A DNA stretch of 64,000 nucleotides, from NCBI RefSeq assembly GCF_003336225.1, contig NZ_QPID01000006.1, positions 104,207-168,206 on the forward strand, written 5' to 3'. This document shows positions 5,075 to 41,606 of this stretch, in pieces; positions within the stretch are counted from its first letter, which is position 1, and each line of letters starts with the position of its first letter. A program made the translations under genes and the position numbers. The DNA is from Corallincola holothuriorum. GTDB lineage: Bacteria > Pseudomonadota > Gammaproteobacteria > Enterobacterales > Neiellaceae. A model generated the notes under the pieces. The model was given only the letters and a program-made list of their open reading frames with translations, ran no database searches and had not been told where the DNA came from.

Positions 5075-5210
5075 AAAAATGCGCTGAAGCGGTTAAGATT
5101 AACGGGAGTAATACCTGATCTTAATGTTTTTCAATAGTTTCAGTCACACAGCAGTGAGCAGCCAGTATAATTACTCTGCGATATCTATCTATTTAAGGAT
5201 GATCTGATTT

Positions 5211-26188: not shown

Positions 26189-26200
26189 TTTGACGCTCCT

Positions 26201-26605: not shown

Positions 26606-26695
26606 AGTTATTCGCTTCCTTAATTGTTTAAATTTGACGCTGATTCTTTGTGTTATAACGACCGGATATTGTTCATCTAGGCCGTTGGGTTATCT

Positions 26696-28434: not shown

Positions 28435-28449
28435 GGTAATCGTCCTTTA

Positions 28450-29136
28450 TTAGCCTGCTTGTTTTGCTTTCAGTCGCTCTAACACGGAGTTAGCTGAGGA
28501 AGTAGAACTACCGATCCCAGCGTCCTTGAGTTTTTTCTCTAGTTCATTGCCGTCGTCAGATAACTCTTCCGCTGCTTCAAGTTTAGCTTGCTTCTCTGCT
28601 TGCTTATTCTTGATGCGCTGCAGTGAATCTGCGGCATTGGCTACTTTTGAGTTGGCATTGATACTGGTTGCAGCGATCTGCTCTTGTGCTTTTTGTACTG
28701 CTTCGGTCGCTTTCACCTGCGCCAGTTGACGCTCCATTTCCGCTAACTGTTTCTTGCTTTTAGCGATAGTGGTTTCGATACGGGCAAAATCAGCCTTAAT
28801 TGTATCCAGATGCGCTTTGTCTTCAGTGAACTGAGTTTCCAGCGCTGCAATTTTTTCTGCCACTTCGCCAGCCAAGGCTTCATCACCTTTGCTTAGGGCT
28901 TCTACGGCAAAGTTTTCATATTTGCTGATCTCTGCTTGCAACTTGTCCACCTTAGATTCAGCCAGTTTCTTCTTACCTGCTAAATCAATACGGCTACGAC
29001 CTGCTACGTCCATTGCCTGGCGTGCGTCGCGGATATGCTGCTCCAGCAAACGGATTGCTTGAGCGTCGGTAAATTCTTCTTCCATCTCGGCTTTGATAGC
29101 ACGACCGAAAGTAAACAGTTTCTTAAATAAACTCAT
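28450..29136 (-). CDS. PspA/IM30-family protein (YjfJ-like)
   Basis: LEQHIRDARQ, a long coiled coil, and VKATEAVQKAQEQ align with E. coli YjfJ/PspA. Confidence 0.8.
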   Translation of the reverse strand: MSLFKKLFTFGRAIKAEMEEEFTDAQAIRLLEQHIRDARQAMDVAGRSRIDLAGKKKLAESKVDKLQAEISKYENFAVEALSKGDEALAGEVAEKIAALETQFTEDKAHLDTIKADFARIETTIAKSKKQLAEMERQLAQVKATEAVQKAQEQIAATSINANSKVANAADSLQRIKNKQAEKQAKLEAAEELSDDGNELEKKLKDAGIGSSTSSANSVLERLKAKQAG

Positions 29137-29148
29137 GATAAATTCCTC

Positions 29149-29577
29149 TTATTCGGCTGCAGGGTGACGGGCAATTTGATCTTCACACGCTTCGGCAACG
29201 GTTAATACGTTATCTGCCAAGCTAGTGAGTTCCAGCATTACGTTTTCTATGGTTGATGTCGCACTCAGCGCACCAAATAGGACGTAATGGTCCTCGCCGT
29301 TAATGGTTTCAATGGCAACGGTAGAAAGCGGCAGGTACTTATGGTTGCGAAGGAACTCATCGTTCAACGCTACCTTGTCCTTAACTACTGCAACCGGAAA
29401 CAATACAGACTCCATCAACATCTGATCTTCAGAGATGCTGATAACGACGGGCAGGTCACCCTGCTCATGCATGGTGGCTGCCAAGCAGTCGCCTACCAAA
29501 GATACAGTTACCTCTCCAGAAGTAATCGCATCAAGTTCGTACATCGCGTCTAATAAAGTTTGTGTAGTCCAGCTCAT
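29149..29577 (-). CDS. DUF2170-family protein (YjfI-like)
   Basis: 142 aa acidic protein at the head of the cluster, in the position yjfI occupies in E. coli. Confidence 0.5.
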   Translation of the reverse strand: MSWTTQTLLDAMYELDAITSGEVTVSLVGDCLAATMHEQGDLPVVISISEDQMLMESVLFPVAVVKDKVALNDEFLRNHKYLPLSTVAIETINGEDHYVLFGALSATSTIENVMLELTSLADNVLTVAEACEDQIARHPAAE

Positions 29578-29769
29578 GATTCACTCCGTGTTATGGGTGC
29601 TGGCGAACCAGCCACTTAAGGATGTTCTCAAAAATAATAAATGTCAACTATATTCAACATTTGTTTTGTTTTGTTGCTTTTTGGTTCGTATTGACCAATA
29701 CTCATATCATTCACAATATGTAATGATTGAGCGCGCAAACATGCGTGATGAAATTACTAAGGAAACACT

Positions 29770-30036
29770 ATGACAACAGATACGCCTCCTGCGTTCGATT
29801 CTGTTATTAAACGCCTGGTGAGAACCATGATGGCGCAAAGTGGTATGACGTACGCTGAACTGAGTAAACAGTTATACCTGCAGTTCGGAACGACACAGTT
29901 GGACAATAATCTGAGGTCGAAGGTTAACAAAGGCAAGATGTCTGCGGATCTTTTTATTCAAATTTTGTCTGTGTGCAAGTTTTCGGTGTCACCTGAGATA
30001 GTTAAGCAGGTGATAGAAGCCACCCAGTCGCAATAA
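29770..30036 (+). CDS. Small putative helix-turn-helix DNA-binding protein
   Basis: AAGGAAA Shine-Dalgarno plus ATG. 88 aa containing an HTH-like segment (MTYAELSKQLYLQFG). It is the first gene of the plus-strand block. Confidence 0.35.
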   Translation: MTTDTPPAFDSVIKRLVRTMMAQSGMTYAELSKQLYLQFGTTQLDNNLRSKVNKGKMSADLFIQILSVCKFSVSPEIVKQVIEATQSQ

Positions 30037-30180
30037 TTTGTTTCATTTTTTAGTCATAGAATAATGTTGATCTAGGCCGCTTCTTTAGCAAAAGCCTAAC
30101 AAAAAGGTGGAGGCTATCGGTTAGTATGTCGGCTTGTTTTTTATCTCCCGCTTGTATCAAGCAGAGGGGAATAATTAATA

Positions 30181-30233
30181 CATACATGATGTATGTGAAT
30201 GGATAGTTGTTTCATAAGCACGCGTGTTTATGA
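30181..30233 (+). promoter_or_regulatory. Two inverted repeats upstream of the yqiJ-like gene (candidate operator sites)
   Basis: catacat-g-atgtatg at 30181..30195 is a perfect 7-bp inverted repeat with a 1-nt spacer. tcataagcacg/cgtgtttatga at 30212..30233 is an 11-bp inverted repeat with one mismatch. They lie 40-90 nt upstream of the ATG at 30271. Confidence 0.35.
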
Positions 30234-30270
30234 GTAGGTCGCCTGACGGCCTCCAAAGGAAGGAGTACAT

Positions 30271-30915
30271 ATGGATGTTTTCTTAGCGCACCTGATTCAA
30301 TTTCCCACGGTTATTTACACCGTTTTACTCGGTGTCATGCTCTGCTATTGGTTTGTTGCCGCATTGGGCACCGTTGATGTTGACGTATTAGATATCGACA
30401 TTGATGTTGATGCGGATGTCGGCGCCCTAGAAGGTTTTGCCGGATTGCTACTGAGATTGGGGTTGGCGGGTGTGCCTTTAACTGTCGTGCTGACAGTGAT
30501 TGCACTCACAGGTTGGAGTATCTGCTACTTCTCCATGTTGCTGGTGATTAATCCTTTGTTTTCGTTCTCTGGTGTATTGCAGTGGGTATTAGGTGCCGGT
30601 GTAGCCATGGTGGCTTTTGTTGCCTCCATTTTTATCGCCGCGCAAATCGTTAAGCCTCTGCGACCTTTGTTTAAGTCAGCGAATGCGACATCTACCAACG
30701 ATTTGGTGGGTTCAAAAGTAGTTATACGCACCTCAAAAGTGACTCCTACATTTGGCGAAGCCACATTGGAAGATGGTGGCGCGGGCATGGTATTGCGCGT
30801 GCGGGCCGACGAAACTCAAAACTTAACTCGCGGCGATATTGTCGTGATCCTCGAATACCTGCCGGAAACACATGCCTATCGCGTGATGACCGAGGCAGAA
30901 CTGTTTAAGCAATAA
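30271..30915 (+). CDS. YqiJ/NfeD-like inner membrane protein with C-terminal OB-fold domain (flotillin partner)
   Basis: GGAAGGAG Shine-Dalgarno. 4 TM helices, then a soluble beta-rich C-terminus (GSKVVIRTSKV...GDIVVILEY). The architecture and the downstream flotillin mirror E. coli yqiJK. Confidence 0.6.
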   Translation: MDVFLAHLIQFPTVIYTVLLGVMLCYWFVAALGTVDVDVLDIDIDVDADVGALEGFAGLLLRLGLAGVPLTVVLTVIALTGWSICYFSMLLVINPLFSFSGVLQWVLGAGVAMVAFVASIFIAAQIVKPLRPLFKSANATSTNDLVGSKVVIRTSKVTPTFGEATLEDGGAGMVLRVRADETQNLTRGDIVVILEYLPETHAYRVMTEAELFKQ

Positions 30916-30970
30916 CTCAATTTAGAAACCAATTTTCGTACAAATTTAATTTGAAAAAGGAATATTCAAT

Positions 30971-33031
30971 ATGCCTATAGATATGGGTCTAGCAATGGGT
31001 GTACTTACCATCATCGGTGTTATTTTTGGCGTCATATTCGTACTTGCGATGATGTTTAAAGCGTTTTACGAGAAAGTGCCCCAAGGAACAGCGTTGATTG
31101 TGAATGACATGAGTTCAACGCCAAAGGTGAAGTTCACCGGCGGTATGGTGATCCCCGTTATCCACAAGAAAGAGCTGATGAAGATCTCTTTAATCACTCT
31201 GGAAGTGGATCGAAGAGGACGTGATGGTTTGATCTGCCGCGACAATATGCGTGCGGACATTACCGTGGCTTTCTACCTGCGCGTTAATGAAACCCAGGAA
31301 GATGTATTGAAGGTCGCTAAGGCGATTGGCGTAGAGCGTGCGTCTGACAAAGCGGCGGTGAATGAGTTGTTTAACGCCAAGTTCTCCGAAGCGCTGAAAA
31401 CCGTCGGTAAGCAGATTGAGTTTGTACGTTTGTTTGAAGATCGTCTGACCTTCCGTGAAAAGATTGTTGAGGTGATTGGTGATGATCTTAACGGTTACAT
31501 TCTTGAAGATGTTGCCATCGATTACTTAGAACAAACACCAAAGAGTGCCTTAGATCCTACCAATATTTTGGATGCTCAGGGCATACGAAAAATTACCGAG
31601 CTGACGGCAACTCAGAACGTGCAAACCAACGAGTTTGAGCGTAATGAAGAGTTGGCGATCACCAAGAAAAACGTGGAGACCAAAGAGTCTATGTTGGCGT
31701 TAGAGCGTCAACAAGCGGATGCCGAAGCGCGCCAGGCTCGAGAAATAGCCACGATCCAAGCCCGTGAAGAAGCTGAAACCATTAAGGTCAGTGAAGAGGA
31801 GCGTCTGCGTTCTGAGCAAGCTCGTATTAAGACGCAGCAGGATCTTGATATTCAGGAAGAGAATCGTAAGCGTGAAGTAGAGATTGCGGTCGAAAATCGT
31901 CAGCGTGCCGTAGTGATTGAGAAAGAAAAAGTAACGCGGGCGCAGGATCTGGAAGTGGTCTCCCGCGAGCGTGAAGTTGAGCTTGAGCGTATCGCCAAAG
32001 AAAAAGACCTGGAAGTTGAGCGTACCAATATTGCTAACGTGACCCGTGAGCGTGTGGCAGTAGAGAAAACAGTGGCTGAAGAGGAGGAGCGTATTAAAGA
32101 GGTGCGTGAAATCTCAGAAGCTGACCGCTCTAAGCAGGTGTTGATCTTAGAGGCGCAGGCGCAAGCCGAAGAGGAGCTGGTTAAGCAGGTTAAGCAGGCC
32201 GAAGCCGATGAAACCAAAGCCAAGCATAAAGCCGTTGAACTGAATGTACTGGCGCAAGCTGAACTGGAAGCGGCAGCGAAGAAAGCCGATGCGATGAAAC
32301 GTATGGCTGAAGGTATTGAAGCGGAACGTGCGGCGCCAGGGTTTGCTGATGCCCGTGTGCAGGAAGCAAAAGCAGAAGCACTTGAGAAAGAAGGTGCTGC
32401 TGAAGCACAAGTACTCGCGAAGAAGATGGAAGCTCAGGCCCAAGGTGATGAGCAGCAAGGGTTGGCGAAAGCCCGTGTGATTGAAGCGCAAGCGATTGCC
32501 AAAGAGAAAGAGGGGCTGGCCGAAGCCAAGGTGCTGGAAGAGAAGCTGGGTGCCCAAGCCAAAGGCGACGAACAGCAAGGTCTCGCAGAAGCCGCCGCAG
32601 AAAAAGAGAAAGGTTTGGTGGCTGCCACAGTTATTCGCGAGAAATTGACCGCAGAAGCTGAAGGTTTAGTGGATAAGTTCAAGGCGATGGATGCTATGAG
32701 CGATCAGGCGCGCAGCCACGAAGAGTTCCGTATGCAGCTTGAGAAGCAGTTTGAAGAAGCGATTGCGTCTATCGGCGCGAGCAAAGAGATCGCCAAAGAG
32801 CAGGCTGAAGTTCTGTCTGCTGCGTTGTCGAATGCCAATATCGACATCGTTGGCGGTCAGGGCGAGTTCTTTGATTCGTTCGCCAAGTCTCTGTCTGTTG
32901 GTAAATCAGTTGAAGGGATCGTGGGTAAAAGCCCCGTGGTGCAGGAGCTGTTAAGTAAGGTGATGGCGCTGGGTGGCGGGAAAGGGGGCAAGAAACCTTC
33001 TAGCTCAACCTCATCAACCGATCTGTTGTAA
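30971..33031 (+). CDS. Flotillin / SPFH (band-7) family protein, YqiK-like
   Basis: N-terminal TM helix and SPFH domain (VPQGTALIVN...). Long EA-rich coiled coil with internal flotillin-type repeats (EGLAEAKVLEEKLGAQAKGDEQQGLAEA appears twice). Confidence 0.85.
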   Translation: MPIDMGLAMGVLTIIGVIFGVIFVLAMMFKAFYEKVPQGTALIVNDMSSTPKVKFTGGMVIPVIHKKELMKISLITLEVDRRGRDGLICRDNMRADITVAFYLRVNETQEDVLKVAKAIGVERASDKAAVNELFNAKFSEALKTVGKQIEFVRLFEDRLTFREKIVEVIGDDLNGYILEDVAIDYLEQTPKSALDPTNILDAQGIRKITELTATQNVQTNEFERNEELAITKKNVETKESMLALERQQADAEARQAREIATIQAREEAETIKVSEEERLRSEQARIKTQQDLDIQEENRKREVEIAVENRQRAVVIEKEKVTRAQDLEVVSREREVELERIAKEKDLEVERTNIANVTRERVAVEKTVAEEEERIKEVREISEADRSKQVLILEAQAQAEEELVKQVKQAEADETKAKHKAVELNVLAQAELEAAAKKADAMKRMAEGIEAERAAPGFADARVQEAKAEALEKEGAAEAQVLAKKMEAQAQGDEQQGLAKARVIEAQAIAKEKEGLAEAKVLEEKLGAQAKGDEQQGLAEAAAEKEKGLVAATVIREKLTAEAEGLVDKFKAMDAMSDQARSHEEFRMQLEKQFEEAIASIGASKEIAKEQAEVLSAALSNANIDIVGGQGEFFDSFAKSLSVGKSVEGIVGKSPVVQELLSKVMALGGGKGGKKPSSSTSSTDLL

Positions 33032-33128
33032 GCCCTATGGCAAGCGTCTTTGTGCGGAGTTAAATCCGCATTAGGACGGTCAATATGGCTGGCCAGTTTC
33101 ACCTGACGTCTCAGGAACACATCATGGG

Positions 33129-36100
33129 ATGTCAGGGTGGCCAAACTGTTTCGACAGCACGCAGGGAGTACACAGGGTGCAGGATAAAAACCAAGATAAA
33201 CAAGGCGCTGAAGCCGGTATCGTTGATAAGGCGGTGACTGAAGGTGGCGCTTATGAAGTGATCCGTAAGCGCTTGGAAGGGCAAGGGAAGCAGCTTCGAG
33301 AAGAAGTCGATGCCCTTAACCAGTCACGTATCAGTGAGTTTGGTAGTACCGAAATGAAAGTGCTGGGGCGTTTGCGTACCCGCACGGAAAATAACTGTAT
33401 TGCCCAGGATATCGTCTGCGTTGGCGAACACCTGCTGTTTGGCTTCAACGTGTTTATGGGGCTAAAAAAAGAGACTCACATCAGTGATGTATTTGCCCTC
33501 TATCATTTCCAAAAAACTGCTGATGGCTTTGATTTAGAGCCCGCGCGCAGTGACGATACGTTTTTGGCCAATGCAGCCTTTGTGCGTGAGTTTAATGAAC
33601 TGTACGCCTATTACAAAAATACTCGTTTGTCGCAGCTGGTGGTCAAAGATGGCAAGTTACTAGCCAGCTTCCAGATCGGCGAACGGGAAGAAGATATTCG
33701 TGTGTTTCGTTGGTCGATCAGTGCAGATGGCAAACGTGTAGAGTATATCGACAACCGTGGTGAGCGTGATATCGCCTTGCCATCGGCTTATGATTTTGAA
33801 TGGCAGGCAACCAGTCGTGAGAATGCTGTTCATGGTAAACATCCACACCTGAATATTCTCGATACCCTGTTTGTGGAAACGGTCGGTGGTGATCTGACCG
33901 TTAAGATAGAAGACAACACCGCGTCCGGAGAGGGGATCTACGCCGAAGCTGTGGTGGATCAGACCCAGTCGCTGGATGACGCCGATGTGTTTTATGCCGA
34001 GGTCGGCCACCTGATACTGCTAAAAATCTTGCCTTATCGAGAAGAGACCTGGCGCTACTTGTTATTTAACAAGCTGACCCATGAAGTGTTGCGTGTCGAT
34101 GCTATTGGTCAGGCATGTCGGCTGTTGCCGGAAAATCACGGCATTATTTTCCCTGGCGGCATTTATCTGGAATCAGGCGGGCTTAAACTGTTTGATGAAG
34201 ACATGACTGGCATGCGTTTCCGTCGTGTGCGCCGTTCGCCCAATGGCGAAGATGCCATGTATGTGTTCTACAACCCTGAGAACGCAACGATCGCCTTGTT
34301 TGCGTACAACCTGATTGAGAAAAGCCTGCAGGTGCCGTTACTTGGCCATGGTTACGCCATGCTCGATGATGGCACCATGGTGATTTTCTATGCCGAAGGG
34401 GATGAGCCAACCCGCGTGCATCCGATGCAGGTTTGGGAAACGCCCTATTGCAGTGATGAGCACGCCAGTAAAGCACCGGTGAAAGACAGCGTCTATGGCC
34501 GCATTGGCAATGCTGAATTAGTGCGTGCTATTTCCGATTTTTACAGTGTATGCCGTGCCGTGGATGAGCAATCCGTGTCGGCGCGTTTATATGATGAACT
34601 GTGCAAAAATACCTTGCGCCTGTTTGATAGCTACTACTGGTTGGACAATCAGGAAGTACAGGGGATCTCAGATCTGCTACACGAGATTGCCAAAACCAGT
34701 GAACTGGTGCTGGATGAGTTTGAAAAAGTAGAAAGTATTCGTCAGCAGTCAGAGTTGGCAATGGCTGAGGCGGAACAACAGCAAAAAGCGCTGCTCAAAT
34801 CGATGAATGTCGATAGTTGGCACAGCGCTGAAGCTTTTGTTGATGCCCTCGACAGCATTCGCAAACTGCGCGGTCACTTACTGACGATCCGTGACTACCG
34901 CTATATCAATACCTCACGTATTGATGAGATGGAGCAGCAGCTACAAGAAACCGGTGACAAGATATCACTGAAGACCGGCGAATTTCTCTCTTCAGCTGAA
35001 GCCATTGCCCCCTACCATGATCGTCTAGGGACGCTGGAGCAGGCGCTAGCCGATGCGAATTCGATTGTAGAGCTGGAGGCACCTGTCGCCGGACTCGAAA
35101 AGATGGCTTCAGAGCTGGATCTGCTATCTGAGCTGATGACCAGCCTGAAAGTGGATGACGCACAGCAGCGTACCGCCATTGTTGAGGCGATCTCTGAGGT
35201 TTACGCCAAGTTAAATCAGAGCCGTGCCCGTGCCGGACACAAGCAAAAAGAGCTCGGCTCGGCAGAAGCTGTGGCTGAGTTTTCCGCGTCGTTTAAGTTG
35301 TTTTCTCAAGGTATTACCAATGCCCTGAGTGCGGCCACCACGCCGGAGAAGTGTGATGAGCAGCTGACGCGCTTGCTGGTGCAGCTAGAAGAGCTGGAGA
35401 GCCAGTTCAGTGAGCATGACGAGTTCTTGGCCGATATTCTTTCCAAGCGGGAAGAAGTTTACGAAAGCTTTGAGGCGCAGAAACAAGCGCTACTTGATGA
35501 GCGCCAGCGCAAGGCACAGAACCTGCAGGATGCCGCCAGCCGTATTCTCAGTAACATTCAAAAACGGGTACAGCGTTTCACCGAGCCTGATGAACTGAAC
35601 AGCTTTTATGCCGCCGATCCGCTGGTGATGAAAGTACGGGAGATCAGCGAGCAGTTGCGCGGACTCGATGATCAGGTGAAAGCCGATGATATCGATGCTC
35701 GTTTTAAGATGGGTAAAGATCAGGCGCTGAAATCGCTGCGAGATAAGAGCGAGATCTATGAAGAGGGCGGTAACGTCATCAAGCTGGGACCACGGCACAA
35801 ATTTAGTGTGAATACCCAGCCGCTAGATATCACTATCTTACCGCGTAATAACCAGCTTAATTTCCACCTCACCGGTACCGACTATTTCGAGCCAGTAGAA
35901 GATAAGCGGCTGGCTGAATTGAGCCAATACTGGCAGGCGGATATCGAATCTGAATCTGCTGAGATCTACCGCGCTGAATATCTGGCTGGATTGATCCTCG
36001 ATAGCGCTGATATGCATGAGCATGGCCTTACACCAGAGTTACTAAGCAGCGCTGCCAGTGAGCAAGAGGCGCTGGTTAAGATCGCCAGAGAGTTTGCTGC

Positions 36101-38549
36101 GCCAAGATATAAAGAGGGCTATCAGAAAGGGGTTCATGACCATGATGCTGCGCTGATCCTGGCCAAAGTGTTGCCTTTACGGCAAAGCGTCGGCCTGTTG
36201 CGGTTTGATCCGCTGAGTCGTGGTTTAGCGATTATCTTTTGGGCTAACAATCAGCAACAAGCTTGGGCGAAAAGCTGCCCACAGCGGGCACGCTCGGCAT
36301 TGACTATGCAAACCCTGTTTGCCAGTGGCGAAGCACTCGTTTTACTGGAACAGGAGCTGCTGAGTCAGCTGAATAGCTATCTTGAATTGCATACCATTCC
36401 GGTCAGCCAGAGCGACTGCCAACGTGCGGTGAGCTATTTGGTGCGTGAGCTGGCCAACGACAGGGTGGAGTTTGAAACCAGTAAGTACGCCCGTCAGTTG
36501 GCAGATGAGCTAAAGCAGTCTCTTAAAGCTGGCAAAGCGCTGCGCACATTTGAAGAAGCATTGCAGCAGTTGGTTGGCAAAGCGGGGGAGCGCTGGGCGT
36601 TAACCTACAGCTGGTTAACCGCGATGTTAGCCAGTAAGAAAGCAGGCGCCGCGGATACAGCGGAGGCATTAGCCGCCTACGTTCCTGAAGCCGTGGCGAT
36701 CATTAACGCCGAAGAGAGAGTTTCCCGTCGTCACAGCGAAGCGGATCTTAATTTCAGTGTGGATGGCCTCTTGGGTGAACATAGCCGCATTGACAGTCAG
36801 TCACTGCAGTTGCGCTTGGATAGCTTCCTAACCAACTATCAGCTGCACAGAGATCAGTTTGTGCCGGCCTATCATGAGTACCTCAATACGCGACAGCAGG
36901 TGATCAGCGATCGTCGTAAACAATTAAAGCTGCATGAATTTGTTTCGCGACCACTTAGTTCATTTGTTCGTAACCAGCTGATTAATCAAGTTTACCTACC
37001 AATTATTGGCGATAACTTGGCGAAACAGATGGGCACCGTGGGCGAAAACAAGCGCACCGACTTAATGGGCTTGTTGATGATGATCTCGCCGCCCGGTTAC
37101 GGTAAAACCACGTTGATGGAGTATGTGGCGAACCGGCTGGGTTTGATCTTTATGAAGATCAACTGTCCGTCGCTGGGGCATGAAGTGGATTCATTGGATC
37201 CAACGCAAGCGCCCAACGCTACCGCGAAGCAGGAGCTGGAGAAGCTCAACCTGGCGCTGGAGATGGGCAATAACGTGATGCTGTATCTTGATGATATTCA
37301 GCATACCCACCCCGAGTTCTTGCAGAAATTTATCTCCTTGTGTGACGGTACCCGTCGTATTGAGGGGGTATGGCGTAACGAATCAAAAACCTACGATATG
37401 CGCGGCAAGAAATTCTGTGTGGTGATGGCGGGCAACCCATACACTGAATCCGGCGAAGTGTTTAAGATCCCCGACATGTTGGCGAACCGTGCCGATATCT
37501 ACAACTTAGGTGAGGTGCTTGGCGGCATGGAAGCGCCGTTTGCACTGAGCTATATCGAAAACAGTCTGACCTCGAATCAGGTGCTGCAACCGCTAGCAAC
37601 CCGAGATATGCAGGATCTGTATCGCTTTGCCAAAATGGTAGAAACCGACACCATCAATACCAATGACCTTAGCCATAGTTATAGTGGCGCCGAGGTTAAT
37701 GAGATCCTGGATGTGCTGCGTAAATTGATGGTGGTGCGTGATGTGCTGCTGAAAGTAAACAAGCAATACATCGTTAGTGCCTCCCAGGCGGAAAAATACC
37801 GTACCGAGCCCGCGTTTAAGTTGCAGGGTTCATACCGCAACATGAACAAGATGGCGGAGAAGATCTCGGCGGTGATGAACGACGCCGAGCTAAAACAGGT
37901 GATTGCTGATCATTATCTCGGAGAGGCACAACTACTTACCGGCGGGGCGGAAGAGAACCTATTAAAACTGGGTGAAATGCGCGGCACACATACTGATGCA
38001 GAAGCGGCTCGTTGGCAGCAGATCAAGGCCGACTTTGCCCGTAGTAAAGCGATGGGCGGCGACGATGCCGATACTGGCATGCAGGTGGTTGGACAACTGC
38101 ACGACTTAGTTAGCAGCGTAAAAGGCGCGGCAGAACTGATGGTCAATAAGCCGGAAGTTGCGGATAGCGGTAGCGAGCAAACCTCACAAGCGATCGTTCA
38201 GTTGTCAAAAGAGCTGTCTCAGGCACAACAAGCGGCTAGCGATCGTCATATTGAAGTGGTTGAAGCACAGCACTCGGCATCCCGTGCCAAGTTCAATAAG
38301 TCGGCCCGCGCTTTTCTGACGTTGTCGAAGGTGTTCGCCAAAGCGTTATCCCGTGTTGAAGTGGTGAATCAGCCCATTCCTGGGTTAGAAAATCAGCTGG
38401 CGACGCTAACTCAGAGCTTGCAAACCATTGCTCACTCGTTGGCGCCAGATGATAACGATCAGATCCAGATCTTGTTGCGTAATATTGGCAAGTTGGAGCA
38501 TGAATTAGCCGCGCTTAAAGGCGGTAAGCAGAGTGCAGAGGATGCATGA
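33129..38549 (+). CDS. Giant multidomain protein (1806 aa) with a C-terminal-proximal AAA+ ATPase module; function unknown
   Basis: Approximate architecture: aa 1-480 beta-rich, 480-1300 alpha-helical, ~1320-1480 AAA+, then a ~300 aa helical tail. Walker A ISPPGYGKTT, Walker B VMLYLDDIQH, sensor-1 VVMAGNPY and RADIY are contiguous, which is AAA+ and not an SMC/ABC layout. An alternative in-frame GTG start at 33177 follows an AGGGAG Shine-Dalgarno. Confidence 0.7.
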   Translation: MSGWPNCFDSTQGVHRVQDKNQDKQGAEAGIVDKAVTEGGAYEVIRKRLEGQGKQLREEVDALNQSRISEFGSTEMKVLGRLRTRTENNCIAQDIVCVGEHLLFGFNVFMGLKKETHISDVFALYHFQKTADGFDLEPARSDDTFLANAAFVREFNELYAYYKNTRLSQLVVKDGKLLASFQIGEREEDIRVFRWSISADGKRVEYIDNRGERDIALPSAYDFEWQATSRENAVHGKHPHLNILDTLFVETVGGDLTVKIEDNTASGEGIYAEAVVDQTQSLDDADVFYAEVGHLILLKILPYREETWRYLLFNKLTHEVLRVDAIGQACRLLPENHGIIFPGGIYLESGGLKLFDEDMTGMRFRRVRRSPNGEDAMYVFYNPENATIALFAYNLIEKSLQVPLLGHGYAMLDDGTMVIFYAEGDEPTRVHPMQVWETPYCSDEHASKAPVKDSVYGRIGNAELVRAISDFYSVCRAVDEQSVSARLYDELCKNTLRLFDSYYWLDNQEVQGISDLLHEIAKTSELVLDEFEKVESIRQQSELAMAEAEQQQKALLKSMNVDSWHSAEAFVDALDSIRKLRGHLLTIRDYRYINTSRIDEMEQQLQETGDKISLKTGEFLSSAEAIAPYHDRLGTLEQALADANSIVELEAPVAGLEKMASELDLLSELMTSLKVDDAQQRTAIVEAISEVYAKLNQSRARAGHKQKELGSAEAVAEFSASFKLFSQGITNALSAATTPEKCDEQLTRLLVQLEELESQFSEHDEFLADILSKREEVYESFEAQKQALLDERQRKAQNLQDAASRILSNIQKRVQRFTEPDELNSFYAADPLVMKVREISEQLRGLDDQVKADDIDARFKMGKDQALKSLRDKSEIYEEGGNVIKLGPRHKFSVNTQPLDITILPRNNQLNFHLTGTDYFEPVEDKRLAELSQYWQADIESESAEIYRAEYLAGLILDSADMHEHGLTPELLSSAASEQEALVKIAREFAAPRYKEGYQKGVHDHDAALILAKVLPLRQSVGLLRFDPLSRGLAIIFWANNQQQAWAKSCPQRARSALTMQTLFASGEALVLLEQELLSQLNSYLELHTIPVSQSDCQRAVSYLVRELANDRVEFETSKYARQLADELKQSLKAGKALRTFEEALQQLVGKAGERWALTYSWLTAMLASKKAGAADTAEALAAYVPEAVAIINAEERVSRRHSEADLNFSVDGLLGEHSRIDSQSLQLRLDSFLTNYQLHRDQFVPAYHEYLNTRQQVISDRRKQLKLHEFVSRPLSSFVRNQLINQVYLPIIGDNLAKQMGTVGENKRTDLMGLLMMISPPGYGKTTLMEYVANRLGLIFMKINCPSLGHEVDSLDPTQAPNATAKQELEKLNLALEMGNNVMLYLDDIQHTHPEFLQKFISLCDGTRRIEGVWRNESKTYDMRGKKFCVVMAGNPYTESGEVFKIPDMLANRADIYNLGEVLGGMEAPFALSYIENSLTSNQVLQPLATRDMQDLYRFAKMVETDTINTNDLSHSYSGAEVNEILDVLRKLMVVRDVLLKVNKQYIVSASQAEKYRTEPAFKLQGSYRNMNKMAEKISAVMNDAELKQVIADHYLGEAQLLTGGAEENLLKLGEMRGTHTDAEAARWQQIKADFARSKAMGGDDADTGMQVVGQLHDLVSSVKGAAELMVNKPEVADSGSEQTSQAIVQLSKELSQAQQAASDRHIEVVEAQHSASRAKFNKSARAFLTLSKVFAKALSRVEVVNQPIPGLENQLATLTQSLQTIAHSLAPDDNDQIQILLRNIGKLEHELAALKGGKQSAEDA

Positions 38550-39250
38550 TGAGTGAGTTAAGCGTATTAGAAAAACAACTGATTGATAGCTTCGATGATC
38601 TTAAGCTCAGTGACAGTGAGCGGGCGGAGCTGAAGGAGCTTGCTCGACCATTAAGCGCAGATAAAGTGAGATTTATTCGCAACAAAGCGTTTGCTATTGC
38701 CCGTGACAAAATTGCTACGGCTAGTGGAGATGATAATGCTGCTGAAGCGTTGTCGGCGCTTGGTTGGCTGGAGCGGGTGGTGAAAACCCTTGATCAGGCC
38801 ACGCGCAAACAAGCGATCACCTCGGGAGCTTATTTCAGCCCAGGCACGGCTTGCATGAAGAAGATCGTTGACCTTTGTCACCAAGCCAAGCGCAACATTG
38901 ATATCTGTGTCTTTACTATCTCAGATGATCGCCTCAGCGCTGCGATTAAGAAAGCCCATGATCGCGGCGTGCAGGTGCGGATCATCACGGATAATGATAA
39001 AGCCAATGACAGTGGCAGTGATGTTGACCAGTTAGCCAGACAAGGGGTGCCGTTGCGTATGGATCGCACTGAATACCATATGCACCACAAGTTTGCGTTA
39101 TTTGACCGCGTAACCTTGCTTAACGGCAGTTTTAACTGGACCCGCAGCGCGACAGATAAGAACGAAGAGAACATTTTGGTGACGGACAGTGAAACGCTAT
39201 GTGCTTCCTATCTGGAACAGTTTGAGCGTTTGTGGCAGAAGTTCGCCTAA
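38546..39250 (+). CDS. Phospholipase D-family nuclease (single HKD motif, Nuc/Zucchini-like)
   Basis: Single HxKx4D...N motif (HMHHKFALFDRVTLLNGSFNWTRSA) in a ~150 aa PLD core after a ~90 aa helical N-terminal extension. Its ATG overlaps the TGA of the giant gene (ATGA). Confidence 0.8.
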   Translation: MMSELSVLEKQLIDSFDDLKLSDSERAELKELARPLSADKVRFIRNKAFAIARDKIATASGDDNAAEALSALGWLERVVKTLDQATRKQAITSGAYFSPGTACMKKIVDLCHQAKRNIDICVFTISDDRLSAAIKKAHDRGVQVRIITDNDKANDSGSDVDQLARQGVPLRMDRTEYHMHHKFALFDRVTLLNGSFNWTRSATDKNEENILVTDSETLCASYLEQFERLWQKFA

Positions 39251-39307
39251 TATAGCCTGCTATTGATATGAGCGGGTGAGAGTTGATAAAGGTAGCAGTA
39301 AATCAAA

Positions 39308-39745
39308 ATGAATAAACAGAATTCAGGAGAAGAAGCGATGCGCGGAGCAGGCGGAACCAGCGGTGGGGTGGGGCAATTCTTTATTGGCTTGGTAATGATG
39401 TGTGGCGGTTTTTATATGCTGTTTAATGCCATTACAGTGCGCTCCAGCTTTGGTATGCGTACCTCTCTATACTCCTTTGGCTCAGGCTGGGGAATCACCA
39501 GCGGTATGGTGATGATCCCGTTTATCTTTGGTATTGGGCTTATTTTTTACAACAGCAAAAATATCCTTGGTTGGATCCTAACCATCGGTTCACTGGTGGC
39601 GCTTATCTTTGGCGTGATCTCCTCGATAAACTTCAGCATGCGTACCATGACCTCATTCGATCTCATTGTGATCTTAGTGTTGTCCGTTGGTGGCGTAGGC
39701 TTGTTTTTGCGCTCGCTAAAAGGGCTGCCGGAAGTAAGTGAATAG
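39308..39745 (+). CDS. Small 4-TM membrane protein, last gene of the operon
   Basis: AGGAGAAG Shine-Dalgarno. 145 aa with Gly-rich hydrophobic helices. Followed by a terminator. Confidence 0.45.
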   Translation: MNKQNSGEEAMRGAGGTSGGVGQFFIGLVMMCGGFYMLFNAITVRSSFGMRTSLYSFGSGWGITSGMVMIPFIFGIGLIFYNSKNILGWILTIGSLVALIFGVISSINFSMRTMTSFDLIVILVLSVGGVGLFLRSLKGLPEVSE

Positions 39746-39778
39746 TATTCGATGATAGGCTAACTTATAGCGATACAA

Positions 39779-39804
39779 GGGCACCACCTACGGTGCCCTT
39801 TTTT
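39779..39804 (+). terminator. Rho-independent terminator (gggcacc-acctac-ggtgccc + T6)
   Basis: 7-bp GC stem with a T-run. It closes the plus-strand operon. Confidence 0.8.
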
Positions 39805-40299
39805 CTGGTTGCTCGTGGGTTCTCTCTGTTACATCTGTGGTTACCCCATTTTCATCTCAATCACACGCTCTTTACTAAGGTGCTTGAGCATCGTTTCTTC
39901 GTTTCACCGATATAGGTGGCTTTGTGTTATCTACCTGCTACCGTCGAATTCGTTAGCGCAGGCGTGATTTTTCTCCTATTTGGTATTACTTCTTTGATAC
40001 CAATTTCTGTGGCTTATTTTTGTAGGTTAGATACGTTAAAAGAGACTGATAGGGCTTAATTTAGTTGTGTGACTGATAGGTGTGAAGGTTGCTCTTGTGT
40101 TTGTAACTTGCTGAATTTAAAGTGTAAAAAAACCTGACACCGGAAAATAGCTTAAACTAAATTAGTTTGTTTATCATGTTGTTATGAAGAACGTCATCAA
40201 ATGGTTGATTTGGGGCATTCTATTTAATATTAGCTTGCTATAAGATGCGCAAAAATTAGGCATTTTATAACAAGAAAATAACAAGTAGGTGAAGTAGCT

Positions 40300-40754: not shown

Positions 40755-41606
40755 TTAGTGCTTATCAAAAAAATCTTTTCTACGAATATATTTCCCCATG
40801 TCATGGTAACTGATTGGCATCATGAGCCAGCTGGTTAAGCTTTTGACCAGGCGAAAGTGCTCAGAGACATTTTCGTAAATCTTATCGTTATGCAGCCATA
40901 GCATCCGCCCAACATGCCAGTAAAGTCCGGGAATAGGCGGTAAAAAAGTTACAATATCGATATCACAGCAGATCCTGTACGTACGTTTATGCAATAAGTA
41001 CTGCTTTTTGAAGCTCCATGTGCCAGTGCCGGGCTGACCGAACGTGATCACTCGTTTTACCTTGGTTGGATAGCGTCTTTCTAATCTATCTGCTGCCAAG
41101 ATGGCCATAGAGCCACCAGAGGAGTGCCCGGTTAGTGTAATCCGTTTACCGTCAGCAATGAGCGGTTCAAGAACTTGTTGGAGCCGTTCATATACGCTGA
41201 CGTTCCGCTCTTTTTCTGCGTGATCCCGAGGCATGATTTGAGATACGAGTGGAGTCGTCGGCAATAGGGAAGGTTCGGTGGCGTATTTTGCCAACGGACT
41301 GGGTAGCTCCAGCAACCGAGAGTAGCCCCAGTGGACGCGATAGCTTGCACCTGGATATGTTCGTTTTACTGGAAATAGTGCCAGATTAGTTAGCCAATCG
41401 GTTAAGTGGTAAGTCCCTCTGAACACCACGACAACTTCTCTTTTTTCTCCCCACATGACCCGAATTGATACTTGACCACTTAAATCGCGGATAAGGCAGT
41501 GGCCTTCAGTATTGAACCCGTAAGCGGTGTGATCAAAGTCTGTCGGGTAGGACGCTTGGCACAGCAGTGCATAGCGCTCGTATTGATAGCTTTTTAACTT
41601 TTTCAA
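40755..41606 (-). CDS. Class-3 (fungal-type) lipase / alpha-beta hydrolase
   Basis: TLTGHSSGGSMA nucleophile elbow (GHSxG) in a Lipase_3-like context (VVVFRGTYHLTDW). Confidence 0.7.
   Translation of the reverse strand: MKKLKSYQYERYALLCQASYPTDFDHTAYGFNTEGHCLIRDLSGQVSIRVMWGEKREVVVVFRGTYHLTDWLTNLALFPVKRTYPGASYRVHWGYSRLLELPSPLAKYATEPSLLPTTPLVSQIMPRDHAEKERNVSVYERLQQVLEPLIADGKRITLTGHSSGGSMAILAADRLERRYPTKVKRVITFGQPGTGTWSFKKQYLLHKRTYRICCDIDIVTFLPPIPGLYWHVGRMLWLHNDKIYENVSEHFRLVKSLTSWLMMPISYHDMGKYIRRKDFFDKH

What the first reader, a model, noticed from the sequence alone, without database searches (positions are those of the whole stretch)
33129..38549. Giant protein with a beta-rich N-terminal ~480 aa, ~800 aa helical middle and a C-terminal-proximal AAA+ module
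The only P-loop (SPPGYGKTT) is ~1320 aa into the protein. Walker B (LYLDDIQH) follows ~65 aa later and sensor-1 Asn (MAGNPY) ~35 aa after that. This is an AAA+ arrangement, not the split Walker A/B of SMC/SbcC. The protein could be mistaken for SbcC-like because it is Q/E/L-rich. The N-terminal third has alternating short hydrophobic and Gly/Asp turns, suggesting a beta-propeller or beta-sandwich sensor. No catalytic motif other than the ATPase is visible. Two candidate starts exist: ATG 33129 with a weak Shine-Dalgarno, and GTG 33177 with AGGGAG.
Basis: seen in the sequence. Interest (0 to 1): 0.75.

Follow-up and report, generated by a model that had tools for sequence, protein, structure and literature searches.

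The report
Giant flotillin-linked AAA+ ATPase (BacE family)
This 1,800-residue protein is a real, intact member of a widespread but functionally unstudied family of giant ATPases that is always encoded next to a flotillin-type membrane scaffold, so its database label "DNA repair ATPase" is almost certainly wrong, but the family and its operon have already been described.

Summary
ORF 33129-38549 (+) encodes 1806 aa with one P-loop (SPPGYGKTT, K1326), one Walker B (LYLDDIQH) and a sensor-1 Asn (N1436) near the C-terminus. It has a beta-propeller-like N-terminal domain and about 830 mostly helical residues between them.

It is not an orphan. Pfam reads DUF3686 + DUF7902 + AAA, and full-length relatives occur in at least 583 species across five or more phyla. 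In every related locus with enough flank, the gene follows a YqiJ/NfeD-like membrane protein and a YqiK-type flotillin. A DUF2170-PspA pair often lies upstream, and a PLD (HKD) hydrolase sometimes follows.

[quoted passage not shown] 2024. In Pseudomonas aeruginosa it is the bacABCDEF operon, where the giant is BacE (PA3728). No function has been shown for BacE.

Most likely it is an ATP-driven assembly or remodelling factor, or a nucleotide switch, acting on the flotillin/NfeD/PspA membrane-stress scaffold. It does not look like a DNA-repair or phage-defence protein.

The start is more likely GTG 33177. Verdict: new member of a known kind, moderate interest.

The parts
30271..30915 (+). YqiJ/NfeD-like (DUF1449-type) multi-TM protein with a C-terminal soluble domain, 214 aa. 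First gene of the operon; BacC equivalent.
   Evidence: No Pfam hit for this protein itself. Profile of 20 orthologues vs E. coli YqiJ by hhalign: prob 94%, E=1.5e-7. 4 of 20 orthologues weakly hit YqiJ_N. Found directly upstream of the flotillin gene in 72 of 80 related loci; all misses are contig truncations.
30971..33031 (+). YqiK-type flotillin (TM + SPFH/band-7 + long E/A/K-rich coiled coil), 686 aa. BacD equivalent.
   Evidence: No Pfam hit for this protein itself. Profile of 21 orthologues vs E. coli YqiK by hhalign: prob 99.9%, E=8.5e-33, 406 columns, 31% identity. One orthologue hits Band_7 at 1.5e-7. The Streptomyces neighbour is annotated 'flotillin family protein'. Present immediately upstream of the giant gene in 76 of 80 loci; the 4 misses are truncated contigs.
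33129..38549 (+). Giant AAA+ protein, 1806 aa from ATG 33129. The probable true start is GTG 33177, giving 1790 aa. BacE (PA3728/PA14_16190) orthologue.
33177..33179 (+). Probable start codon GTG, with AGGGAG at 33163-33168 (8-nt spacer).
   Evidence: Sequence. Homologues' N-termini align here and lack the 16 preceding residues.
33357..34439 (+). Beta-propeller-like domain, aa 77-437; core of Pfam DUF3686 (aa 56-503).
34449..35738 (+). Elongated helical region, aa 441-870, including Pfam DUF7902 (aa 624-708).
   Evidence: Pfam. Helices are modelled for aa 443-559 only; the remainder was not modelled, and its helical character rests on its Q/E/L/A-rich composition.
35823..36938 (+). Family-specific 'middle domain', aa 899-1270: mostly helical with small sheets. 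It is preceded by the near-invariant motif GGNVIKLGPRHKFSVNTQ (aa 880-897).
   Evidence: AF2 pLDDT >90 over this stretch. No PDB fold match; all Foldseek hits map to AAA+ proteins. phmmer over 1.84 billion representatives gives only 530 hits at E<=1e-3. Among the best 150 listed, the 1500-1930-aa proteins carry the domain at the same position, about residues 850-1290, and the shorter entries match only part of it.
37074..37508 (+). AAA+ alpha/beta core, aa 1316-1460. Walker A SPPGYGKTT at 37086-37112 (K1326). Walker B LYLDDIQH at 37281-37304 (D1388, D1389). Sensor-1 MAGNPY at 37425-37442 (N1436). Candidate Arg finger R1454 at 37488-37490.
   Evidence: Pfam AAA and AAA_5. All motif residues are invariant in 20-37 sequences. 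91% mean identity among gammaproteobacterial families. The wider AAA+ slice used as query, aa 1260-1665, is 60-67% identical to Deinococcus, Streptomyces and Hymenobacter. Foldseek hits are Skd3/ClpB, CbbQ/NorQ, RuvB, PspF and ClpA (E 3e-3 to 9e-2). A profile search of PDB sequences matches only the P-loop to beta2 stretch of NVL, p97/Cdc48, Rix7, NSF and RuvB. The R1454 assignment is inference from the box VII/SRH position.
37509..38108 (+). Lid and conserved C-terminal helical region, aa 1461-1660, including the invariant motif FKLQGSYRNMNKM (aa 1563-1575).
   Evidence: Conservation. This motif lies in a stretch with pLDDT <50.
38109..38546 (+). Variable Q/A-rich C-terminal tail, aa 1661-1806, with a short semi-conserved motif VEVxNQPxPG.
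   Evidence: 18% mean identity; alignment.
38546..39250 (+). Single-HKD phospholipase-D-superfamily hydrolase, 234 aa. Its start overlaps the giant's stop (ATGA). BacF equivalent.
   Evidence: PLDc_2 E=2e-33. HHKFALFD at aa 180 and GSFN at aa 194. Best PDB sequence matches: MitoPLD/Zucchini 4e-30, Nuc 8e-15, NucT 1e-6. Below cutoff for NucT, DrmC and DpdK. Present downstream in 22 of 80 loci.
39308..39745 (+). 145-aa predicted multi-TM protein, possibly co-transcribed. Membership in the system is doubtful.
   Evidence: No family hit. A homologue was seen in only 1 of 80 loci (L061). A terminator-like hairpin follows at 39777-39800.
28450..29577 (-). DUF2170/YjfI (CesT/Tir-like, 29149-29577) and PspA/IM30 YjfJ-type (28450-29136). 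This is the BacA-BacB equivalent dyad, here divergently transcribed and heading a yjfIJKLMC-like operon.
   Evidence: Pfam. In 42-46 of 80 related loci this dyad lies directly upstream of the YqiJ-like gene, usually on the same strand.

Best explanation
The gene encodes the Corallincola orthologue of BacE. BacE is the giant AAA+ subunit of a conserved membrane-stress module built around a YqiK-type flotillin and its YqiJ/NfeD-type partner. The module is frequently extended by a DUF2170 (CesT/Tir-like) chaperone, a YjfJ-type PspA (bacterial ESCRT-III) and a single-HKD PLD hydrolase.

Proposed mechanism (inferred, not shown):
1. The protein oligomerises through its C-terminal AAA+ module at the cytoplasmic face of the flotillin/NfeD assembly.
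2. The propeller-like N-terminal domain and the family-specific middle domain bind the scaffold proteins (flotillin tail, NfeD soluble domain and/or PspA).
3. The long helical region acts as a spacer or lever.
4. ATP binding and (probably slow) hydrolysis drive or gate assembly, disassembly or remodelling of the flotillin/PspA polymers at stressed membrane. This role is analogous to Vps4 on ESCRT-III or to FtsH inside the HflK/C cage.
5. Where present, the translationally coupled PLD may act on anionic phospholipid (cardiolipin or PG to PA) in that microdomain. A nucleic-acid substrate cannot be excluded.

Shown: domain anatomy, conservation, gene linkage, orthology to the bac operon. Inferred: oligomerisation, physical contacts, substrates.
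For: Identity:
- Pfam DUF3686 + DUF7902 + AAA.
- 100% match to a Corallincola spongiicola protein, and more than 5,000 full-length relatives.

Linkage:
- 76 of 76 loci with usable flank have the flotillin gene, and 72 of 72 have the YqiJ-like gene, immediately upstream on the same strand. 42-46 have DUF2170-PspA and 22 have the PLD.
- The same trio is found in Deinococcus, Hymenobacter (with 'chaperone Tir' + PspA/IM30 + DUF1449) and Streptomyces (with 'flotillin family protein').

Partner identity was tested by hhalign against E. coli YqiK (E=8.5e-33) and YqiJ (E=1.5e-7).

Literature:
- Ravi et al. [quoted passage not shown] They propose ATP-dependent membrane remodelling and assembly roles (PMC11237479).
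- In P. aeruginosa PA14, RT-PCR shows bacA-F is one operon, and BacB-F (including PA14_16190 = BacE) rise 6-13-fold in a bacA mutant (PMC10948618).
- PA3731 (BacB) is induced by osmotic shock (PMC2587700).
- PA3728-PA3732 are upregulated by phage infection (PMC12041424).
- P. paraeruginosa locus L021 has the six genes in the bac order with matching sizes.

ATPase:
- Walker A, Walker B, sensor-1 and a box-VII Arg are invariant.
- The core is 91% identical across families.
- Its P-loop to beta2 stretch is most like classical-clade remodellers and RuvB.

Not a mobile or defence gene: 0 of 50,697 phage records, 13 of 72,556 plasmid records (mostly megaplasmids or chromids), and no PADLOC model.
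Against: - No experiment on any family member addresses the ATPase itself. No interaction, localisation or activity data exist.
- Walker B is DD rather than DE (invariant). The pore-loop-1 position has no aromatic residue (LGHEVDSLDP). Both argue against a fast substrate-threading motor of the Vps4/ClpB type and fit a slower switch.
- The AAA+ part of the model is only moderately confident (pLDDT 50-80, P-loop region <50). Fold matches are weak (E about 1e-2), so the clade is unresolved.
- PspA is absent from the immediate neighbourhood in about 40% of loci and the PLD from about 70%, so neither can be the obligatory substrate or effector.
- In this window the PspA dyad is on the opposite strand and belongs to another operon.
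- No sigma-54 promoter like that proposed for bacA was found upstream of the operon here.
- The closest solved relative of the PLD, Zucchini/MitoPLD, is itself disputed between lipid and RNA substrates.
Confidence: 0.5

Rival explanations
1. It is a nucleotide-gated switch or scaffold rather than a motor. The giant would be a slow, DnaA/ORC-like or STAND-like ATP switch. Its propeller senses a membrane-stress ligand or an unassembled partner. In the ATP state it nucleates or licenses the flotillin/PspA assembly, or activates the PLD, with hydrolysis only resetting the switch.
For: The invariant DD Walker B and the lack of an aromatic pore loop. A large sensor-like propeller plus a family-specific domain. 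Extreme conservation of the ATPase core, typical of a tightly regulated site. The same gene linkage as the best explanation. That DD Walker B motifs occur in slowly hydrolysing initiator ATPases is recalled from general knowledge and was not tested here.
Against: There are no Pfam or fold matches to STAND (NACHT/NB-ARC) or initiator-clade ATPases. The best sequence similarity of the P-loop stretch is to classical-clade remodellers and RuvB. No effector other than the optional PLD is encoded.
Confidence: 0.22
2. It is an anti-phage or abortive-infection defence system. The flotillin/NfeD pair would sense membrane perturbation on infection, the giant ATPase would transduce the signal, and the PLD-family protein would act as a nuclease effector.
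For: The PLD gives weak hits to DrmC, DpdK and MkoB/C defence nucleases, and is related to the Nuc/NucT/Zucchini nucleases. PA3728-PA3732 are induced by phage infection. Giant ATPases with repeat-domain sensors are common in defence systems (general knowledge).
Against: No PADLOC model matches the giant, the flotillin or the YqiJ-like protein. The PLD scores lie far below the curated cutoffs (63 vs 211 bits for NucT, 40 vs 133 for DrmC), and the PLD is absent from about 70% of loci. The family is absent from 50,697 phage records and nearly absent from plasmids. The core is 50-78% identical and syntenic across orders and is part of the P. aeruginosa bac operon present in PAO1, PA14 and the P. 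paraeruginosa lineage. That pattern is unlike patchy, fast-evolving defence islands. Induction by phage is what a phage-shock-type envelope response does anyway.
Confidence: 0.12
3. It is a DNA repair or chromosome-maintenance ATPase of the SMC/SbcC/MukB kind, as the database name says.
For: Source names 'DNA repair ATPase/protein' and the Pfam DUF3686 title 'ATPase involved in DNA repair'. A long Q/E/L/A-rich helical region. A neighbouring PLD related to nucleases. A weak RuvB_N / NCBIfam RuvB hit over 48 residues (E 0.004-0.008).
Against: There is no N-terminal Walker A, no ABC signature motif, and no split head. The single P-loop and Walker B lie 65 residues apart in an AAA+ module. The RuvB hits score 15-16 bits against cutoffs of 282-299. 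There is no DNA-binding or nuclease domain. The neighbours are membrane-scaffold and envelope-stress genes, never repair genes. No paper links DUF3686 or PF12458 to repair. The name most probably stems from compositional hits of the coiled-coil region to SbcC/Smc COGs; this last point is my inference.
Confidence: 0.03

Closest known systems
[quoted passage not shown] 2008, PMC2587700; PMC10948618, 2024)
   Same: Same family and architecture; Pseudomonas relatives are 60-62% identical over about 91% of the length. Same gene order YqiJ-like, flotillin-like, giant, PLD (L021). The giant is co-transcribed and co-regulated with the PspA-like BacB.
   Different: In P. aeruginosa the DUF2170-PspA dyad (BacA-BacB) heads the same operon, reportedly from a sigma-54 promoter. 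In this window the dyad is divergent, heads a yjfIJKLMC-like operon, and no sigma-54 site was found. BacE itself has no assigned function, so orthology transfers context but not mechanism.
[quoted passage not shown]
   Same: Every component is present and was verified here independently. The abbreviated flotillin + YqiJ + AAA+ form is also seen.
   Different: That work is comparative genomics only. Here the middle domain is additionally shown to be a confidently folded, family-restricted domain. The DD Walker B, the missing aromatic pore loop and two invariant but unmodelled motifs are also noted.
Vps4/CdvC acting on ESCRT-III (Snf7/CdvB); PspA/Vipp1 are bacterial ESCRT-III homologues
   Same: An AAA+ ATPase genomically coupled to an ESCRT-III-superfamily polymer. 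The P-loop to beta2 stretch resembles the classical AAA clade.
   Different: No MIT domain. Walker B is DD, not DE. No aromatic pore loop. About four times larger. The strict coupling is to flotillin/NfeD, while PspA is optional. This is a functional analogy only.
FtsH-HflK/C and m-AAA protease-prohibitin (AAA+ machines working inside SPFH cages)
   Same: A partnership between an SPFH-family membrane scaffold and an AAA+ ATPase.
   Different: The giant has no TM segment and no protease domain. The SPFH partner is YqiK/flotillin-type, not HflK/C.
E. coli YqiJ-YqiK and B. subtilis YuaF-FloT (NfeD-flotillin pairs)
   Same: The two upstream genes are homologues of this pair.
   Different: In the 10-kb E. 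coli K-12 yqiJK stretch fetched, sibD/ibsD follow yqiK and no giant ATPase gene is present. The flotillin subfamily here escapes the Pfam Band_7 model in 20 of 21 members.
MitoPLD/Zucchini and Nuc (single-HKD PLD-superfamily enzymes)
   Same: The downstream 234-aa protein has the HxKxxxxD and GSxN motifs and matches these best.
   Different: No N-terminal membrane anchor. It has an about 100-aa helical N-terminal extension. The substrate is unknown.

Membership tests
DUF3686/BacE-type giant AAA+ ATPases | N-terminal DUF3686 (PF12458) domain | tested here: met
   E=7.2e-200, aa 56-503, full profile coverage.
DUF3686/BacE-type giant AAA+ ATPases | DUF7902 helical domain and a single C-terminal-proximal AAA+ module in a 1600-1900-aa protein | tested here: met
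   PF25472 E=3.8e-26 at aa 624-708; AAA and AAA_5 at aa 1316-1443. The 20 relatives aligned in full are co-linear end to end, and all 119 non-identical relatives listed cover 91-99% of the query with the same Pfam architecture.
DUF3686/BacE-type giant AAA+ ATPases | Encoded immediately downstream of a YqiJ/NfeD-like gene and a YqiK-type flotillin gene | tested here: met
   Window genes 30271-30915 and 30971-33031. hhalign to YqiJ E=1.5e-7 and to YqiK E=8.5e-33. The same order holds in all loci with sufficient flank and in three other phyla.
bacABCDEF-type operon (P. aeruginosa) | DUF2170 (BacA) and PspA-like (BacB) genes heading the same transcription unit, with a sigma-54 promoter | tested here: not met
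   The dyad is adjacent but on the opposite strand, heading a yjfIJKLMC-like cluster. No TGGCAC-N5-TTGCW-like site (<=2 mismatches) lies in 29577-30271. The window therefore has the abbreviated flotillin-YqiJ-giant-PLD form next to a PspA operon.
bacABCDEF-type operon (P. aeruginosa) | PLD/HKD gene (BacF) directly after the giant gene | tested here: met
   38546-39250 overlaps the giant's stop by ATGA. PLDc_2 E=2e-33 with the HKD motif intact.
bacABCDEF-type operon (P. aeruginosa) | Induction by envelope, osmotic or phage stress; biofilm, rhamnolipid or virulence phenotype | not testable with these tools
   Known only for P. aeruginosa BacA/BacB and the operon transcripts.
Classical-clade AAA (Vps4, p97/Cdc48, NSF, katanin) | GPPGxGKT P-loop followed by a beta2 strand of the '...A...G..F..I.GP.L' type | tested here: met
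   SPPGYGKTTLMEYVANRLGLIFMKINCPSL. The best PDB profile hits are NVL, p97, Rix7, Cdc48 and NSF, over this 35-residue stretch only (E 2e-4 to 6e-3).
Classical-clade AAA (Vps4, p97/Cdc48, NSF, katanin) | Walker B hhhhDE with a catalytic Glu | tested here: not met
   MLYLDD: D1388 and D1389 are invariant in all alignments.
Classical-clade AAA (Vps4, p97/Cdc48, NSF, katanin) | Aromatic-hydrophobic-Gly pore loop 1 after beta2; second region of homology with two Arg | tested here: not met
   The loop is LGHEVDSLDPTQAP with no aromatic residue. Only one conserved Arg (R1454 in MLANRAD) follows sensor-1. Motif expectations come from general knowledge of the clade.
SMC/SbcC/MukB-type 'DNA repair' ABC ATPases | N-terminal Walker A and C-terminal Walker B plus signature motif, separated by an antiparallel coiled coil | tested here: not met
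   There is a single GK[ST] at aa 1325 with Walker B 60 aa later, and no LSGG. No SMC_N, AAA_23 or SbcC Pfam hit.
MoxR AAA+ (with VWA partner) | AAA_5/MoxR core of about 300 aa, with an adjacent VWA-domain protein | tested here: not met
   AAA_5 reaches 29.9 bits (cutoff 22), and CbbQ and NorQ are among the weak fold hits. However, no VWA gene is in the operon and the protein is six times larger.
Known anti-phage defence systems (PADLOC-DB v2: BREX BrxC, DISARM, Dpd, Mokosh and others) | Match of the ATPase or its partners to a defence-system model | tested here: not met
   No hit for the giant, the flotillin or the YqiJ-like protein. Only generic PLD similarity for the downstream gene, below NCBIfam cutoffs.

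The most novel reading that the evidence does not exclude
BacE-type giants may be the long-missing dedicated energy source for bacterial membrane-scaffold dynamics. In this reading, a cytoplasmic AAA+ machine docks through its propeller and family-specific middle domain onto YqiK-type flotillin/NfeD cages and, where present, onto YjfJ-type PspA (ESCRT-III) polymers. It then uses ATP to assemble, disassemble or reshape them during membrane repair, with the coupled PLD locally converting cardiolipin or PG to phosphatidic acid. That would be a bacterial counterpart of Vps4/ESCRT-III and of MitoPLD-driven membrane remodelling, built from unrelated parts. The two invariant but unmodelled motifs (GGNVIKLGPRHKFSVNTQ and FKLQGSYRNMNKM) would be the partner or oligomer interfaces.
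Probability: 0.3. Interest if true: 0.8.

Novelty: new member of a known kind. Interest (0 to 1): 0.42.

Why it matters
Flotillins and PspA/Vipp1 (bacterial ESCRT-III) are central to membrane organisation and repair. Yet no dedicated ATPase that drives their dynamics is established in bacteria. This family is the most consistent genomic candidate. It is a roughly 200-kDa AAA+ protein welded to flotillin/NfeD genes across at least five phyla. In P. aeruginosa it sits in an operon tied to biofilm formation, rhamnolipid production, virulence, osmotic shock and phage infection.

Correcting the misleading 'DNA repair ATPase' label matters for annotation of thousands of genomes.

For this particular window the result is mostly a re-identification. 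The gene is an ordinary, intact orthologue, and the operon class is already in the literature. The value lies in the sharpened anatomy and in testable residues (K1326, D1388/D1389, N1436, R1454, HKD H181/K182).

Tried and rejected
- PADLOC scan of the giant and six neighbours: only generic PLD hits.
- phmmer of the giant, the flotillin-like and the YqiJ-like proteins against PDB sequences, and profile searches with A4 and A5: nothing useful.
- Pfam at E<=10 on the flotillin-like and YqiJ-like proteins of the window: no SPFH or NfeD hit. This was resolved only by scanning orthologues and by hhalign to E. coli YqiK and YqiJ.
- Literature searches for 'DUF3686', 'PF12458' and 'flotillin + DNA repair ATPase': zero papers.
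- megablast of 30000-40000 against E. coli genomes: no match.
- Foldseek of the C-terminal model: only weak AAA+ hits, none for the middle domain.
- Sigma-54 promoter search: 45 hits against 47 expected, none in the operon's upstream region.
- Arc1-3 antagonism-resistance clusters (PMC8926400) were checked as a possible identity for the operon. They are unrelated; PA3729 appears there only as a background protein.
- SMC/SbcC, MoxR-VWA, STAND/NLR, BrxC and bEBP (PspF-like) identities were considered and rejected (see the membership table).
- The search of the middle domain against 1.84 billion representatives found no other architecture carrying it.


Full report
**1. The observation**

The window has an uninterrupted ORF at 33129-38549 (+) of 1806 codons.

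A motif scan finds exactly one GK[ST] (aa 1325, within SPPGYGKTT at 1320-1328). It finds exactly one hhhhD[DE] (MLYLDD at 1384, so LYLDDIQH starts at 1385). MAGNPY is at 1433. There is no ABC signature and no TM-like stretch.

They are slightly off for sensor-1, which is 48 aa from the start of Walker B rather than about 35.

Pfam places AAA (E=5.8e-8) and AAA_5 (E=6.4e-7) at aa 1316-1443, DUF3686 at aa 56-503 (E=7e-200) and DUF7902 at aa 624-708.

Both proposed starts exist. In a 20-sequence alignment the homologues start where GTG 33177 lies ('MxQQ...') and lack the 16 residues that follow ATG 33129. With AGGGAG 8 nt upstream, GTG 33177 is the more probable start, giving 1790 aa. The public record uses ATG (P0001, 1806 aa).

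**2. Anatomy from structure prediction**

Model of aa 17-560:
- 37-sequence alignment, pLDDT 78.8, pTM 0.69.
- It has a long N-terminal helix, about 30 beta-strands between aa 77 and 437, then helices.
- Foldseek against PDB returns 181 matches at E<=1e-3. The top 50 are essentially all beta-propellers (Sec12, DCAF1, IFT-A WD40s, prolyl oligopeptidase, LGI1 EPTP), but TM-scores are only 0.1-0.4.
- I therefore call the domain propeller-like. The blade count (about 7) is inferred from the strand count only.

Model of aa 860-1720 (pLDDT 74.1):
- It contains a compact, mostly helical domain with small sheets at aa 899-1270, modelled at pLDDT >90.
- This domain has no PDB fold match; all Foldseek hits fall on AAA+ proteins.
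- By phmmer over 1.84 billion representatives it gives only 530 hits at E<=1e-3. Among the best 150 listed, the 1500-1930-aa proteins carry it at the same position (about residues 850-1290) and the shorter entries match only part of it. It appears to be family-specific.
- The AAA+ part is modelled less confidently. It matches Skd3/ClpB, CbbQ/NorQ (MoxR), RuvB, PspF and ClpA only weakly (E 3e-3 to 9e-2).
- A profile of the AAA+ region against PDB sequences matches just the 35-residue P-loop to beta2 stretch of NVL, p97/Cdc48, Rix7, NSF and RuvB.

Departures from a classical remodelling motor:
- An invariant DD Walker B (D1388, D1389).
- A pore-loop-1 position without an aromatic residue (LGHEVDSLDP).
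- A single Arg (R1454) where the second region of homology would be.

Conservation is very uneven:

| Region | Mean identity |
|---|---|
| AAA+ core | 91% |
| Stretch before the middle domain (aa 871-898) | 86% |
| Beta domain | 66% |
| Middle domain | 48% |
| C-terminal tail | 18% |

Two near-invariant motifs fall in regions the model could not place (pLDDT <50): GGNVIKLGPRHKFSVNTQ at aa 880-897 and FKLQGSYRNMNKM at aa 1563-1575. These are candidate interfaces or an unrecognised site.

**3. The family and its context**

The protein is 100% identical to an 'AAA family ATPase' of Corallincola spongiicola. More than 5,000 clusters match, and the 119 non-identical relatives listed cover 91-99% of the query at 57-78% identity. 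Most are named 'DNA repair ATPase'.

Eighty loci were fetched. They include Pseudomonas, Stenotrophomonas, Xenorhabdus, Gilliamella, Comamonas, Delftia, a zetaproteobacterium and Longimicrobium.

tblastn of the window's neighbours against these loci gave:
- the 686-aa protein immediately upstream in 76 of 80 loci;
- the 214-aa protein before it in 72 of 80 loci;
- every miss is a contig that ends within a few hundred bases of the gene.

DUF2170 and PspA/IM30 genes lie just upstream in 46 and 42 loci, almost always on the same strand. The PLD lies downstream in 22 loci.

The trio recurs in distant phyla:
- on a Deinococcus megaplasmid;
- in Hymenobacter, annotated 'molecular chaperone Tir', 'PspA/IM30', 'DUF1449', hypothetical, 'DNA repair ATPase';
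- in Streptomyces, annotated 'flotillin family protein' followed by 'DNA repair ATPase'.

The AAA+ region (aa 1260-1665) of these distant members is still 60-67% identical to the window.

Neither neighbour of the window hits Pfam directly. Profiles of their orthologues align to E. coli YqiK (hhalign prob 99.9%, E=8.5e-33) and YqiJ (prob 94%, E=1.5e-7). One orthologue hits Band_7 and four hit YqiJ_N.

The family is absent from 50,697 phage records. It is present in only 13 of 72,556 plasmid records, mostly megaplasmids, chromids or mislabelled chromosomes. PADLOC has no model for it.

**4. What is already known**

Ravi, Anantharaman et al. (mSystems 2024, PMC11237479) describe this very operon. 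Its components are:
- a CesT/Tir (DUF2170)-PspA (YjfJ) dyad;
[quoted passage not shown] - a YqiJ/YuaF 3TM protein;
- in some Proteobacteria, a PLD (HKD) hydrolase.

They also report abbreviated flotillin + YqiJ (+ AAA+) versions that are more widely distributed. They suggest roles in ATP-dependent membrane remodelling and complex assembly.

In P. aeruginosa the locus is the 'biofilm-associated cluster':
- PA3732-PA3729 (BacA-D) were named in 2008. A PA3731 (PspA-like) mutant is defective in biofilm, swarming, rhamnolipids and virulence, and PA3731 is induced by osmotic shock (PMC2587700).
- In 2024, RT-PCR extended the operon to bacE (PA14_16190) and bacF (PA14_16200). All of BacB-F rise 6-13-fold in a bacA mutant (PMC10948618).
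[quoted passage not shown]' (PMC8855297).
- PA3728-PA3732 are upregulated by phage infection (PMC12041424).
- Locus L021 from P. paraeruginosa shows the six genes in the bac order with matching sizes. On this basis the giant is BacE and the PLD is BacF by orthology.
- I found no study of BacE itself and no solved structure.

**5. Peculiarities of this window**

The DUF2170-PspA dyad (29149-29577 and 28450-29136) is on the minus strand. It heads a yjfIJKLMC-like cluster containing a K+ channel, DUF2491, DUF350, DUF1190 and glutathionylspermidine-synthase-like genes. This is the second PspA operon class of Ravi et al.

The two classes are therefore adjacent and divergent here and share one dyad. 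Hahella (L053) and a Cellvibrionaceae genome (L063) show the same inversion.

No sigma-54 consensus lies upstream of the YqiJ-like gene.

The PLD start overlaps the giant's stop (ATGA). A 145-aa TM protein and a terminator-like hairpin follow.

**6. Mechanism**

What is shown:
- the anatomy;
- the invariance of the ATPase motifs;
- the absolute linkage to flotillin and YqiJ;
- the frequent linkage to PspA and DUF2170;
- the optional PLD;
- co-transcription and co-regulation in P. aeruginosa.

What I infer: the giant is the nucleotide-driven component of a flotillin/NfeD(/PspA) membrane-stress module. The propeller and middle domain would be partner-binding modules, and the AAA+ ring would act as engine or switch. 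Functional analogies are Vps4 with ESCRT-III and FtsH with HflK/C.

The DD Walker B and the non-aromatic pore loop make a slow switch a serious alternative to a threading motor. That is why the rival 'nucleotide-gated scaffold' is kept at 0.22.

The closest solved relatives of the PLD are MitoPLD/Zucchini (4e-30) and Nuc (8e-15). Its HKD and GSxN motifs are intact. A lipid substrate fits the membrane context, but a nucleic-acid substrate is not excluded.

The defence-system and DNA-repair readings are disfavoured for the reasons in the rival list.

**7. Verdict**

The ORF is genuine and not a fusion.

The gene is an orthologue of an already catalogued and described, though functionally uncharacterised, family. 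It is therefore a new member of a known kind.

Interest is moderate at 0.42. A specialist in envelope stress would not be surprised by its presence. The family nevertheless remains an attractive, tractable candidate for the ATPase behind bacterial flotillin/PspA dynamics, and its public name is misleading.

Limits of this analysis:
- The alignments used for modelling were shallow (37 sequences at about 60% identity).
- I could not inspect model coordinates.
- No multimer prediction was possible.
- All functional statements about partners and substrates are inference.

Noticed in passing
window 24438-29577 (-): A complete yjfIJKLMC-like envelope or polyamine cluster lies here. It comprises DUF2170, PspA/IM30, a K+ channel with a TrkA_N domain, DUF2491, DUF350, DUF1190 and a glutathionylspermidine-synthase-like protein. 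It is divergent from the flotillin-giant operon. The two PspA-associated operon classes of Ravi et al. 2024 therefore sit back-to-back here and share one DUF2170-PspA dyad.
   Followed up: partly
window 29770-30036 (+): An 88-aa ORF with Pfam DUF6471 (E=9e-15) looks HTH-like by eye. It lies in the divergent intergenic region between the two operons and is absent from all 80 related loci. It may be a local regulator or an insertion.
   Followed up: no
window 39308-39745 (+) and 39777-39800: A 145-aa multi-TM protein with no family hit follows the PLD, and is itself followed by a strong terminator-like hairpin (9-bp stem, T-run). The only homologue (70% identity) sits directly after the giant gene in Paraglaciecola (L061 15145-15504).
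   Followed up: partly
giant protein aa 880-897 (window 35766-35819) and aa 1563-1575 (window 37815-37853): Two near-invariant motifs, GGNVIKLGPRHKFSVNTQ and FKLQGSYRNMNKM, fall in segments that AlphaFold2 models at pLDDT <50. They are conserved more strongly than the confidently folded middle domain. They may be interfaces or an unrecognised functional site.
   Followed up: partly
window 30971-33031 (+): The flotillin subfamily linked to the giant ATPase escapes the Pfam Band_7/Flot models; only 1 of 21 orthologues hits Band_7. It also gives no phmmer or hmmsearch hit to any PDB sequence. It is nevertheless clearly homologous to E. coli YqiK by profile comparison, which suggests a model-coverage gap in Pfam.
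   Followed up: yes
NC_009444.1 92413-94008 (plasmid pQBR103 of P. fluorescens SBW25; hit H3): The well-studied 425-kb megaplasmid pQBR103 carries a homologue annotated 'DNA repair ATPase' (58% identity over the N-terminal domain). This is one of only 13 plasmid records with the family.
   Followed up: no
window 40755-41606 (-), 41673-42506 (-), 42913-46017 (-): Downstream genes unrelated to the finding: a class-3 lipase, a voltage-gated-type ion channel and an AcrB-family RND transporter.
   Followed up: no
L001 (Corallincola platygyrae) 1-7000: In the closest relative's genome, no DUF2170 or PspA homologue lies within 7 kb upstream of the YqiJ-like gene. The adjacency to the yjf-like operon seen in the window is therefore not conserved even within the genus.
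   Followed up: no
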